A stretch of DNA of 64,000 nt from Gammaproteobacteria bacterium (GTDB lineage: Bacteria; Pseudomonadota; Gammaproteobacteria; Steroidobacterales; Foliamicaceae). The position numbers and the translations under genes are program-made. The notes beneath the pieces were generated by a model, which was not told the DNA's origin, ran no database searches, and worked only from the letters and a program-made list of their open reading frames with translations. Positions 14,446-15,936 of the stretch are shown piece after piece (positions within the stretch are counted from its first letter, which is position 1; each line of letters opens with the position of its first letter). The DNA lies in assembly GCA_009844425.1 (NCBI GenBank), contig VYBN01000018.1, forward strand, positions 5,092 to 69,091, written 5' to 3'.

Positions 14446-14563
14446 CGCCGCCACGGCCCTGGCGCCGTCCGGCGCCCGCCTGTCGGAGATCGATGCCGGA
14501 CGCGTGTGGTGGCAGGACGAATACGCGCTGGACGCCTGGGTCCAGCGCCAGGAACAGCAATAG
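14446..14563 (+). pseudogene. 3' end (38 codons) of a phage gene truncated by the repeat
   Basis: The frame is open from 14447 and reads AATALAPSGARLSEIDAGRVWWQDEYALDAWVQRQEQQ*, with TAG at 14561-14563. No start codon lies inside the insert. Confidence 0.5.
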
Positions 14564-14573
14564 GAGAACCCCC

Positions 14574-15200
14574 ATGACCAAAGCGATCGAAAGCCACGCG
14601 AACAAGACGGTGCTCGGCGCCGGCGAGGTGTATATCGATGTCCTGGACGCCGCCGGCAAGCGCACCGGCGAACGGTACGTCGGCGACTCGACGGGCGCGA
14701 GCGTGAGCGCCACCACGGAGCGCACGACGATATTCAGCGGCGACGGCGCTGTCGCCCGCACGCTGCTGGATAAGATCACGTCCGTGAATCACACGATGTC
14801 GGTCACGATCCAGGACATGCAGCCGGAGAACTTCGCGCTGTTCCTGGCCGGCGAGGTCGAAGAGGTTGCGGACGGTTCCACGTCCGCGAATGAGGCCATC
14901 GAGGTCAAGGCCGGCCTGTGGTATCAGCTCGGCGTCAAGAACACGGCCGCCGGACGCGCCGGCGCCGCGAAGGAAATCAAGGCGGCCGTGCGCTACATCG
15001 AGGACGACGCGACGGGGCTAGGCAACGGCAGCAACTGGTATATCCGCCAGGCAACGGTCGGCCCCGCCGGAGAGCTGGCGCTCAAGGACCGCTCCACGCC
15101 GCAGGCCATCGGGCTGCAGATACTCGTTGAAGTGCCGGCCATCGCCGGCGAAGAAGGGCACCCGGCCATCCTGGTGGACGGCGCGCCGTACGGCAGCTGA
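14574..15200 (+). CDS. phage major tail (tail tube) protein-like
   Basis: AGGAGA RBS and ATG at 14574 (MTKAIESHANKTVLGAGEVYID...). The size, the beta-rich composition and its position before a chaperone pair fit a tail tube protein. The upstream part of track ORF 14493.. is treated as an extension. Confidence 0.6.
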   Translation: MTKAIESHANKTVLGAGEVYIDVLDAAGKRTGERYVGDSTGASVSATTERTTIFSGDGAVARTLLDKITSVNHTMSVTIQDMQPENFALFLAGEVEEVADGSTSANEAIEVKAGLWYQLGVKNTAAGRAGAAKEIKAAVRYIEDDATGLGNGSNWYIRQATVGPAGELALKDRSTPQAIGLQILVEVPAIAGEEGHPAILVDGAPYGS

Positions 15201-15397
15201 TGCACAGAGGTTTCGGGGCCAGGGGCAGGAATCGCGACGTGAGCGTGATGGTGAAATCGCCTACAGAAGGTCCCAGCCAGAGAGTGCCTCAATGAGCGCC
15301 AAGAGCACTAGCAGTCCGATGGAAAAAGACAAGAACCTCACCACGAGGTGAATGGTTTCTATAAAAATTTTGTGGAGCATGAGAATGAGAATAGCAC

Positions 15398-15861
15398 ATG
15401 AGCAGCAAGACTGACCGCGATATCGACATCCTGCTTCCGGACCGCGACGTGACGGTCACCGATCCGGACACCCGCAAGGCCGTCGAGGTCACCGTCCGCG
15501 AGTTCCGCTTTCTGGAGGGCCTCAAGGCCCAGGGCGTCGCGGCCCCGCTGCTGGCCGACCTGGCGGCGGCGCTGACCGATTCCAGTGGCGATATCGGCGT
15601 CGCCGCAGTCGACGCGGCGCTGACCACCCACGCCGGCGTGTGGACCGCGCTGCTTGCGCTGGCCGTGGCGAAGCCGTCCCGCTCGGGCAAGTTGCCGCGG
15701 CCCTCGTCCGCGCCGGGCACGGACGGCACGGCCAAATCCTCCACGAGCTGACGTGGCGGCAGATCAAGCTATTCTGGAAGGCGGAGCAGGCCGCCCGCGA
15801 GGGCGACGCAAAGGCGGTCGCAGCGGGGGTCGGGATGGCGTTGGGCGGCGGCCCGGAGTGA
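15398..15861 (+). CDS. tail assembly chaperone pair (G-like ORF 15398-15751 with a -1 frame extension to 15861, GT-like)
   Basis: Two overlapping ORFs have the second in the -1 frame relative to the first, located between the tail tube gene and a tape-measure-like start. This is the classic siphovirus arrangement. The slippery site was not confidently identified. Confidence 0.5.
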
Positions 15862-15867
15862 TCTGAC

Positions 15868-15936
15868 ATGCCTGTGGGGGTCGGTGATCTCAACGTCGTG
15901 CTCCAGATCCGCGCGGACTTAAGCCGCGCCGTCAAG
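15868..15936 (+). pseudogene. first 23 codons of the next phage gene (tape-measure position), truncated by the repeat
   Basis: GGAG plus ATG at 15868, reading MPVGVGDLNVVLQIRADLSRAVK and then running into the repeat at 15937. Confidence 0.45.

What the first reader, a model, noticed from the sequence alone, without database searches (positions are those of the whole stretch)
14446..15936. A second kilobase insert at a spacer position: a siphovirus-like tail-module fragment truncated at both ends by repeats (mega-spacer 2)
Seen in sequence: 1491 bp lie between the repeat ending at 14445 and the repeat starting at 15937. The contents are, in order: the last 38 codons of a gene with no start (...DAWVQRQEQQ*), a tail-tube-like gene, a two-ORF chaperone-like pair with a -1 frame overlap, and the first 23 codons of the next gene (the tape-measure position) running into the repeat. 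An essential phage gene cut after 23 codons argues against an element that natively carries repeats. It fits capture of a random phage DNA fragment into the array. Two independent events of the same type in one array suggest that this adaptation machinery, or this lineage, is prone to it.
Basis: partly seen in the sequence, partly recalled or inferred. Interest (0 to 1): 0.75.

Follow-up and report, generated by a model that had tools for sequence, protein, structure and literature searches.

The report
Kilobase phage fragment as CRISPR spacer
A 1.5-kb piece of a phage tail-gene cluster sits exactly where a 32-base spacer should be in a bacterial CRISPR array, is real and inherited in several strains, and suggests that the CRISPR memory-writing enzyme can occasionally insert kilobase-sized DNA.

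Summary
Window 10984-16026 is a 38-repeat type I-E array behind a complete cas operon. Bases 14446-15936 (1491 bp) lie between two intact 29-nt repeats. The insert is collinear, at 78-86% nucleotide identity, with the tail module of a sponge-metagenome siphovirus (L013). It starts 38 codons before the end of the tail-terminator gene and stops 23 codons into the 688-aa tape-measure gene. The relative has no repeats there. The junctions are not an assembly artefact: an identical insert with identical junctions occurs on at least 22 contigs. It appears in four array variants whose neighbouring spacers differ, always between the same chromosomal genes. It is trailer-proximal, so old, and dozens of normal spacers were added later. 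A second insert (MS1, variant A only) and a candidate third (L029, one junction seen) show recurrence in this lineage. The best explanation is that Cas1-Cas2 integrated an untrimmed kilobase prespacer. All five visible junctions are exact. The two closest phage relatives read GAAGG immediately before the left end. The right-hand 32-mers lack a PAM, which argues against recombination on pre-existing spacers. The catalyst is inferred and the donor was not found. I found no precedent.

The parts
10984..16026 (+). Type I-E CRISPR array: 38 repeats of 29 nt, 35 normal spacers of 32-33 nt and two kilobase inserts
9642..10586 (+). cas1 (314 aa), the adaptation integrase gene upstream of the array
   Evidence: PF01867 on the identical protein
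10567..10857 (+). cas2 (96 aa, I-E type). The leader follows at 10858-10983.
   Evidence: PF09707 on the identical locus; sequence
14417..14445 (+). Intact repeat at the left junction. Its last base is G.
14446..15936 (+). Mega-spacer 2: a 1491-bp phage tail-module fragment occupying one spacer slot
14447..14563 (+). 3' end of a tail-terminator gene: last 38 codons plus the stop, with no start codon
   Evidence: PF23840 E 0.0055; alignment with the terminator genes of L013, L037 and L039
14574..15200 (+). Major tail (tube) protein gene, 208 aa. It lacks the central ~60-64 aa found in relatives.
   Evidence: phrog_807 1e-21
15261..15380 (-). Small hydrophobic ORF (39 aa) in the AT-rich tube-chaperone spacer. 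L013 appears to have a counterpart.
   Evidence: ORF; the L013 counterpart is my own reading of the alignment, not a tool result
15398..15751 (+). Tail assembly chaperone gene, 117 aa
   Evidence: phrog_1442 5e-11, DUF6631 4e-7
15640..15861 (+). Overlapping ORF in the -1 frame (the position of the chaperone frameshift extension). No slippery site was identified.
   Evidence: 82% nucleotide identity to L013 11349-11621
15868..15936 (+). First 23 codons of the tape-measure gene, cut by the repeat
   Evidence: collinear with the start of the L013 688-aa tape-measure gene
15937..15965 (+). Intact repeat at the right junction. Its last base is C, which goes with the next spacer.
12054..13379 (+). 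Mega-spacer 1: an independent 1326-bp insert carrying four small phage-like genes. It is present only in array variant A.

Best explanation
MS2 is a genuine, vertically inherited 1491-bp fragment of a siphovirus tail module. It runs from the end of the tail-terminator gene, through the tail tube, a small ORF and the chaperone, to the first 23 codons of the tape-measure gene. It was written into one spacer slot of a type I-E CRISPR array.

Proposed mechanism:
1. During an infection, or when a related prophage or phage was degraded, the Cas1-Cas2 integrase captured a long double-stranded phage fragment.
2. One end of the fragment lay next to a PAM-like AAG/AGG motif. The other end was never trimmed to the usual 33-nt ruler length.
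3. Cas1-Cas2 joined the two 3' ends to the two sides of the leader-proximal repeat.
4. Gap repair duplicated the repeat.
5. The product is repeat - 1491 bp - repeat, with both repeats intact.
6. The array stayed active. Dozens of normal spacers, and in one sublineage a second long insert, were added on the leader side, which pushed MS2 to the trailer end.

Shown: phage origin; truncation at both ends; exact junctions; presence in four array variants of a clonal population; an old position in the array; recurrence in the lineage.

Inferred: Cas1-Cas2 catalysis; PAM-guided processing of the left end; absence of trimming.

The insert itself is most likely a passive relic. A transcript crossing it would be cut by Cas6e into a giant 'crRNA'. 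Whether that RNA or its ORFs do anything is unknown.
For: Locus context:
- The array lies directly behind a complete I-E operon (cas3, cse1, cse2, cas7, cas5, cas6e, cas1, cas2).

Exact junctions:
- All five visible junctions of long inserts fall exactly at repeat-spacer boundaries, and the flanking repeats are full length. These are MS1 left and right, MS2 left and right, and L029 left.
- There are no degenerate internal repeats, no terminal inverted repeats and no transposase or integrase gene.

Phage origin:
- MS2 aligns collinearly with L013 9872-11618 at 78-86% nucleotide identity, and both boundaries are inside ORFs.

Left end and PAM:
- The two closest relatives, L013 and L037, both read ...GAAGG|CGCCGC at the homologous left boundary.
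- In L013, AAG lies within 1 nt of only 2.2% of positions. One of AAG, AGG, ATG or GAG occupies -3..-1 at 4.8% of positions.
- The MS1 relative L016 reads ATG|GGGTCTG (8.7% expected).
- The last repeat base before a spacer is G in 123 of 127 unique units, as in the E. coli I-E rule, and it is G before MS2.

Real and inherited:
- The insert is identical on at least 22 contigs and in four array variants.
- Every contig that crosses the whole array carries it.

Against recombination on two older spacers:
- The last 32 nt of MS2 and of MS1 are preceded by TCC and TCT, with no G at -1.
Against: - No experiment or read-level data shows Cas1-Cas2 acting on kilobase DNA. To my knowledge, in E. coli the ruler mechanism gives 33 nt almost without exception.
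- The actual donor was not found. PAM evidence therefore comes from relatives that are only about 80% identical.
- In those relatives the canonical AAG is one base out of register, so the adjacent triplet is AGG.
- The PAM of this particular system could not be determined. Only one spacer had a protospacer in a relative, and its flank there is GCG.
- The right end shares GAG with the start of the repeat in L013. A microhomology-based process could also produce that.
- The third insert has only one junction on record.
Confidence: 0.6

Rival explanations
1. Recombination rather than integration. Phage DNA recombined into the array by a double crossover, in the manner of recombineering. The two homology arms were pre-existing normal spacers taken from the terminator and tape-measure genes, and the crossover replaced what lay between them.
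For: - It would also give exact repeat-bounded ends and a PAM next to the left end.
- This phage family is targeted by the lineage: the variant B spacer at L001 9200-9231 matches the L013 tail gene at 30 of 32 positions.
Against: - The last 32-33 nt of MS2, and of MS1, are not preceded by a G or a PAM (TCC/GCT and TCT/CTC). By contrast, 97% of normal spacers follow a G.
- In L013 the nearest AAG lies 30 nt, not 32-33 nt, before the boundary.
- No array variant holds such arm spacers.
- It needs two collinear spacers in the same orientation for each of 2-3 independent events.
Confidence: 0.15
2. Cassette transfer. The fragment was already flanked by repeats on a mobile element, such as a phage- or plasmid-borne mini-array, and moved into the chromosomal array by repeat-repeat recombination.
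For: Phage-borne repeats of this family exist. IMG/VR contig L036 has a head-tail connector gene and a TnpB gene followed by two near-identical I-E repeats 7 nt apart.
Against: - The insert cuts two essential tail genes, so a phage carrying it natively would not be viable.
- The relatives L013 and L037 have no repeats at these sites.
- All 22 contigs that encode the MS2 tail protein are at the same chromosomal locus.
Confidence: 0.07
3. Illegitimate or template-switch repair. A stalled fork or a break at the palindromic repeat copied phage DNA through microhomology and then switched back.
For: There is a 3-nt GAG overlap at the right junction and a 1-nt G overlap at the left junction relative to L013.
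Against: Five of five junctions lie exactly at repeat boundaries and both repeats are complete. Microhomology events should scatter within repeats and spacers.
Confidence: 0.08
4. Assembly artefact, or part of a larger prophage with coincidental joins.
For: All the data are short-read metagenome assemblies, and CRISPR arrays are prone to assembly breaks. Many contigs end in the array.
Against: - The identical junctions appear in at least 10 independent assemblies made by different pipelines, including NCBI MAGs, SPAdes-style scaffolds, MEGAHIT k141 contigs and Logan.
- They appear in four different spacer contexts.
- cas genes and the same chromosomal genes flank the array on contigs up to 190 kb.
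- There is no other copy of the insert in the window.
Confidence: 0.02

Closest known systems
Canonical type I-E spacer acquisition by Cas1-Cas2 (E. coli K-12 model)
   Same: - Insertion is exactly between two full repeats, which implies repeat duplication.
- The DNA is of foreign (phage) origin.
- A G occupies the last repeat position.
- A PAM-like A-N-G triplet lies next to the leader-side end in relatives.
- The position in the array is chronological.
- The locus has a complete cas operon.
   Different: - The length is 1491 bp rather than 32-33 nt, so the ruler and trimming step was bypassed.
- The unit contains whole genes.
- The resulting RNA cannot form a normal Cascade complex.
Casposon integration by casposases (Cas1 homologues); from my knowledge of the literature
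   Same: A Cas1-family integrase inserts kilobase DNA and duplicates the target site. Here the duplicated 'target site' would be the CRISPR repeat.
   Different: Casposons carry their own cas1, a polymerase gene and terminal inverted repeats. MS2 has none of these, and its ends are arbitrary cuts in phage genes.
'Long spacers' caused by IS or transposon insertion into arrays (Kupczok et al. 2015, PMC4524480; Tn7-like elements that target CRISPR repeats, PMC11837452)
   Same: Both give an inter-repeat distance far above normal. Such long units are carried along in array evolution.
   Different: The published long spacers (100 nt or more) are mostly transposons. MS2 has no transposase and no inverted ends. 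It is a truncated piece of a phage structural module with junctions exactly at repeat boundaries.
Prophage integration into CRISPR repeats (Streptococcus pyogenes, Varble et al. 2021); from memory, not re-read here
   Same: Phage DNA lies inside a CRISPR array.
   Different: That case is a whole prophage integrated by its own integrase at an att site resembling the repeat. Here there is a 1.5-kb internal fragment with no integrase or att site and with essential genes cut.
Virus-borne mini-arrays and solitary repeat units (Medvedeva 2019, Faure 2019, Camara-Wilpert 2023); from memory
   Same: Repeats and phage DNA lie next to each other. An example with this repeat family was seen in IMG/VR contig L036.
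   Different: Those are repeats carried in viable phage genomes. MS2 is chromosomal, sits inside a 38-repeat host array, and could not be part of a viable phage.

Membership tests
Spacer unit of a type I-E CRISPR array | Bounded on both sides by full-length direct repeats of the array, in register | tested here: met
   Repeats at 14417-14445 and 15937-15965, with 0 and 1 mismatch
Spacer unit of a type I-E CRISPR array | The array adjoins a cas operon that includes cas1 and cas2 | tested here: met
   cas3 to cas2 at 970-10857; Pfam families on identical loci
Spacer unit of a type I-E CRISPR array | Spacer length fixed by the Cas1-Cas2 ruler (32-33 nt) | tested here: not met
   1491 bp, against 32-33 nt for the other 35 units
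Spacer unit of a type I-E CRISPR array | Derived from a mobile genetic element | tested here: met
   PHROG tail families; collinear with phage contig L013 at 78-86% nucleotide identity
Spacer unit of a type I-E CRISPR array | PAM (AAG in E. coli) immediately 5' of the protospacer in the donor, with its last G retained as the last repeat base | tested here: inconclusive
   - The donor was not found.
- The relatives L013 and L037 read GAAGG|CGCC, so AGG is adjacent and AAG is 1 nt off.
- G precedes MS2.
- The system's own PAM could not be determined.
Spacer unit of a type I-E CRISPR array | Polarised, leader-end acquisition, so that position reflects age | tested here: met
   MS2 is shared by all four variants and is trailer-proximal. 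Variant-specific spacers lie on the leader side.
IS or transposon insertion in an array | Transposase gene and terminal inverted repeats | tested here: not met
   No transposase family was hit. No inverted repeats at the termini.
Integrated prophage or prophage remnant | Integrase and att sites, or contiguity with further phage modules | tested here: not met
   Only 1491 bp, with both end genes truncated. It is flanked by array and chromosomal genes on long contigs. There is no other phage DNA related to it in the window.
Natively repeat-carrying phage element (mini-array or solitary repeat unit) | Repeats present at the same positions in related phage genomes | tested here: not met
   L013, L037 and L039 have uninterrupted terminator genes, and L013 also an uninterrupted tape-measure gene, at the homologous sites
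Casposon | Element-encoded Cas1 (casposase), polymerase and terminal inverted repeats | tested here: not met
   None are encoded in 14446-15936

The most novel reading that the evidence does not exclude
The Cas1-Cas2 module of this lineage acts, at an appreciable rate, as a casposase-like integrase for kilobase DNA. Two confirmed events and one candidate third event are visible in one clonal population. The array would then double as an integron-like capture and expression site. All three inserts are oriented with their genes in the direction of array transcription, so they could be expressed from the leader promoter and released by Cas6e cleavage. Retained cargo might benefit the host, for example a tail-tube protein lacking its central domain that poisons tail assembly of related phages, or the small early genes of MS1.
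Probability: 0.12. Interest if true: 0.9.

Novelty: new variant of a known kind. Interest (0 to 1): 0.66.

Why it matters
- CRISPR adaptation is thought to be tightly length-controlled. A natural, validated and recurrent case of kilobase 'spacers' with perfect junctions would show that the Cas1-Cas2 reaction can complete full-site integration of long DNA in vivo.
- That would link present-day adaptation to its casposon ancestry.
- It would point to a natural enzyme variant or host background worth testing as a site-specific tool for inserting long DNA.
- Array-detection software that splits arrays at long gaps hides such events, so their frequency is unknown.
- Such inserts show a route by which phage genes become fixed in host chromosomes.

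Tried and rejected
Donor search, no closer donor found:
- GenBank phages with blastn found no match.
- IMG/VR was searched by protein pattern and by a conserved 28-mer, with none found.
- JGI metagenomes were searched with a degenerate 26-mer, with none found.
- GTDB genomes held only 47% identical relatives in a Paracoccaceae MAG.
- The closest protein in the 5.8-billion-protein set is P0002, with 79% identity over the N-terminal part.

PAM of this system, not determined:
- 139 unique spacers were compared with all fetched phage loci. Only one real hit emerged.
- Two multiply-targeted protospacer patterns were scanned in IMG/VR, with none found.

Other searches that led nowhere:
- A copy of the insert elsewhere in the window: none.
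- Homologues of the L029 insert, to find its second junction: none.
- Rfam on 10800-16300: nothing.
- Terminator or promoter signals inside the inserts: no more than in shuffles.
- Literature searches for kilobase or phage-gene spacers found only transposon 'long spacers'.

Explanations considered and rejected:
- Prophage remnant.
- IS insertion.
- Native phage repeats.
- Assembly chimera.
- Double crossover on two pre-existing spacers.
The reasons are given under the rival explanations and the membership tests.

A relative-rate test on the tail protein shows no decay signal: 12 unique changes against 15 in P0002. It therefore cannot date the capture.
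Full report
**1. What is in the window**

A search for the 29-nt repeat GAGTTCCCCGCCCGCGCGGGGATGAACCG finds 38 copies between 10984 and 16026, all on the + strand. None is expected by chance. Upstream lies a complete type I-E operon:
- cas3 at 970-3687, followed by cse1, cse2, cas7, cas5 and cas6e;
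- cas1 at 9642-10586 and cas2 at 10567-10857;
- an extra AlbA_2/HATPase_c_4 gene at 8425-9609, between cas6e and cas1.

Thirty-five inter-repeat units are 32-33 nt. Two are long: 12054-13379 (1326 bp, 'MS1') and 14446-15936 (1491 bp, 'MS2', the finding).

**2. Content of MS2**

- 14447-14563 is the last 38 codons of a gene with no start. It has a weak Pfam match to the phage tail terminator family (PF23840, E 0.0055).
- 14574-15200 encodes a 208-aa major tail protein (phrog_807, E 1e-21; PF27730).
- 15398-15751 encodes a tail assembly chaperone (phrog_1442, E 5e-11; DUF6631, E 4e-7). An ORF in the -1 frame overlaps it at 15640-15861.
- 15868-15936 is the first 23 codons of another gene, which runs into the repeat.
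- There are no degenerate repeats inside the insert. The best match has 11 of 29 mismatches, as in shuffles.
- There are no terminal inverted repeats, no transposase or integrase, and no second copy in the window.

**3. Origin**

The closest protein in 5.8 billion is P0002. It lies on sponge-metagenome phage contigs L013-L015, which have Mu-like head genes and a siphovirus tail. The gene order there is tail_S, a 150-aa terminator, a 276-aa major tail protein, a 155-aa DUF6631 chaperone and a 688-aa tape-measure protein.

MS2 aligns collinearly with L013 9872-11618 at 78-86% nucleotide identity. The left boundary therefore cuts the terminator gene and the right boundary cuts the tape-measure gene after 23 codons. 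The phage has no CRISPR repeat at either place.

MS2 differs from L013 in three ways:
- in-frame gaps of 12 and 180 nt in the tube gene, the larger one removing a central region present in all seven relatives;
- a chaperone shorter by 38 aa;
- a longer AT-rich spacer between tube and chaperone, which holds a small hydrophobic minus-strand ORF. By my own reading of the alignment, L013 has a counterpart.

A relative-rate count gives 12 unique changes in the MS2 protein against 15 in P0002, so there is no accelerated decay. The true donor was a distinct phage of this family and was not found in GenBank phages, IMG/VR, JGI metagenomes or GTDB genomes.

**4. Are the junctions real?**

The exact MS2 tail protein is encoded on at least 22 contigs. 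These come from at least 10 assemblies: NCBI MAGs GCA_009841345, GCA_028875795 and GCA_028824615, ENA sponge metagenomes, a MEGAHIT k141 contig, and Logan. Every one is in this same locus, between the cas operon and the same FAD-monooxygenase/Rieske/MFS genes. The host is annotated as an uncultured sponge-associated gammaproteobacterium.

Parsing the arrays gives four variants:
- A (the window): spacers 1-17, MS1, spacers 19-35, MS2, spacer 37.
- B: spacers 38-94, spacer 34, MS2, spacer 95.
- C: spacers 97-118, MS2, then the end of the array.
- D: spacers 120-128, spacer 30, MS2, spacers 129 and 37.

MS2 is 100% identical in all of them. The cas operon is also 100% identical and the downstream genes are 99.9% identical. 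The junction sequences are the same in every variant. A look-up keyed on Cas1 rather than on MS2 shows that every contig crossing the whole array carries MS2. An assembly artefact or a larger prophage is therefore excluded.

MS2 is the only unit shared by all variants and it lies at the trailer end. It is thus an old acquisition, after which the array kept acquiring normal spacers.

**5. Recurrence**

MS1 occurs only in variant A. It carries four small genes, including one of family DUF6874. Each is preceded by a repeated hairpin-plus-Shine-Dalgarno element. Its GC content is about 54%. It resembles phage-like contig L016, where the DUF6874 protein is 80% identical.

A fifth array variant, L029, has ten new spacers. 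After its eleventh repeat come at least 569 nt of different phage DNA: the end of one gene and the start of a tape-measure-like gene (phrog_28, E 2e-7). The sequence runs to the contig end, so only one junction is visible. No homologues were found.

**6. Mechanism**

All five visible junctions lie exactly at repeat-spacer boundaries and both repeats are complete. That is the signature of the Cas1-Cas2 reaction: staggered attack on both sides of a repeat, followed by repeat duplication.

Evidence from the left end:
- The last base of the repeat before a spacer is G in 123 of 127 unique units. This fits the E. coli I-E rule that this base comes from the PAM, and it is G before MS2.
- At the homologous left boundary the two closest phages, L013 and L037, both read ...GAAGG|CGCCGC. 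The adjacent triplet is AGG, and AAG lies one base upstream.
- In L013, AAG lies within 1 nt of only 2.2% of positions. One of the four E. coli-proficient PAMs (AAG, AGG, ATG, GAG; this set is from my knowledge) occupies -3..-1 at 4.8% of positions.
- The MS1 relative reads ATG|GGGTCTG (8.7% expected).
- This is suggestive only. The relatives are about 80% identical to the inserts, and the PAM of this system could not be established.

Evidence from the right end:
- The right end of MS2 has no PAM feature. In L013 it is followed by GAG, which is also the first three bases of the repeat.

A double crossover on two older spacers predicts that the last 32-33 nt of each insert were once a normal spacer, and so should follow a G or PAM. 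They follow TCC (MS2) and TCT (MS1). No variant holds such spacers. I therefore consider that model unlikely.

Transfer of a ready-made repeat-flanked cassette is unlikely because the fragment cuts essential genes and occurs only at this locus. Phage-borne repeats of this family do exist, however. IMG/VR contig L036 carries a TnpB gene followed by two repeats 7 nt apart.

**7.

None of the window's spacers map to MS2 or to L013. The best matches are 17 nt or shorter.

One spacer of variant B (L001 9200-9231) matches the L013 tail gene at 30 of 32 positions. It matches MS2 itself (14965-14996) at 28 of 32 positions, with mismatches at positions 1, 2, 5 and 24 and a GCG flank. It shows that the phage family is a target of this host, and it is unlikely to self-target. 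It lies ten spacers leader-ward of MS2, so there is no clear priming signature.

**8. Comparison with what is known, and verdict**

'Long spacers' of 100 nt or more have been reported in E. coli, P. aeruginosa and S. thermophilus. Most of them are transposons (PMC4524480). Tn7-like elements that target CRISPR repeats are also described (PMC11837452).

I found no report of a kilobase, precisely repeat-bounded phage fragment without a transposase. This is an absence in the library searched, not proof.

The event works like a normal I-E acquisition, and like casposon integration by Cas1 homologues. It fails the defining length feature of a spacer and lacks every feature of a casposon, an IS or a prophage.

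I rate it a new variant of a known kind. The mechanism is inferred, with confidence of about 0.6. Interest is 0.66.

Noticed in passing
window 12054-13379: A second kilobase insert (MS1, 1326 bp, GC about 54%) sits exactly between repeats. It carries four small genes, one of family DUF6874. Each is preceded by a repeated element of about 70 nt with a hairpin and a GAAAGGAGCAAA Shine-Dalgarno sequence. It is present only in array variant A. The closest relative is sponge-metagenome contig L016, whose homologous left flank reads ATG|GGGTCTG.
   Followed up: partly
L029 11982-12550: A fifth array variant has, after its 11th repeat, at least 569 nt of unrelated phage DNA: the end of one gene and the start of a tape-measure-like gene (phrog_28, E 2e-7). 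It runs to the contig end. This is a candidate third mega-spacer, and its second junction is not on record.
   Followed up: partly
window 8425-9609: A 394-aa AlbA_2 (Schlafen-like) plus HATPase_c_4 gene sits inside the cas operon, between cas6e and cas1. In sister lineage L017/L018 a relative from the same 90%-identity cluster sits next to GmrSD, directly beside the FAD-monooxygenase gene, with no CRISPR-Cas. In L020-L025 the site is empty. The site between the adh_short and FAD-monooxygenase genes is therefore a variable defence island.
   Followed up: partly
window 11013-12024 versus 13409-14416: The 17 spacers on the leader side of MS1 average about 57% GC. The 17 between MS1 and MS2 average about 71% GC. 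The switch coincides with MS1 (about 54% GC) and suggests a change in the phages encountered. No spacer matched the MS1 relative L016.
   Followed up: partly
L001 9200-9231 versus window 14965-14996: A normal spacer of array variant B matches the tail-tube gene of the L013 phage family (30 of 32) and the copy inside MS2 in the same array (28 of 32). The mismatches to MS2 are at seed positions 1, 2 and 5 and the flank is GCG, so it is a tolerated near-self match.
   Followed up: yes
window 15261-15380 (minus strand): A 39-aa hydrophobic ORF (MLHKIFIETIHLVVRFLSFSIGLLVLLALIEALSGWDLL) lies in the AT-rich gap between the tail-tube and chaperone genes. By my own reading of the alignment, a similarly placed small hydrophobic minus-strand ORF exists in L013. 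It could be a phage moron or a membrane peptide.
   Followed up: no
L036 1271-1334 (IMGVR_UViG_3300035130_000021): A podovirus-like viral contig with a head-tail connector gene carries a TnpB (OrfB_IS605/Cas12f-like) gene. It is followed by a leader-like AT-rich stretch and two near-identical I-E repeats (GTGTTCCCCGCCCGCGCGGGGATGAACC) separated by only 7 nt.
   Followed up: partly
window 16064-16076: A poly-C tract just after the last repeat differs in length between strains: longer in the window than in L003, by eye about 11 C against about 8 C.
   Followed up: no
window 21625-24390: Three tandem paralogous genes about 1.0-1.1 kb apart and 72-76% identical are annotated as FGE-sulfatase family on the identical loci. 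Their number and length vary between strains.
   Followed up: no
L001, L003 arrays (spacers ACGGCGAAGCAGGGCGCCAAGCGCCGTTAGAA, GCAAAGCAGGGCGCCCGGCGCCGGTAAAATCC, GATTCTACCGGCGCCGGGCGCCCTGCTTTGCC): Three spacers, from variant B (L001) and variant C (L003), target the same protospacer region, one of them on the opposite strand. A second pair (TTGACCAGGTAGACGCC...) are variants of one site. The target element was not found in IMG/VR.
   Followed up: partly
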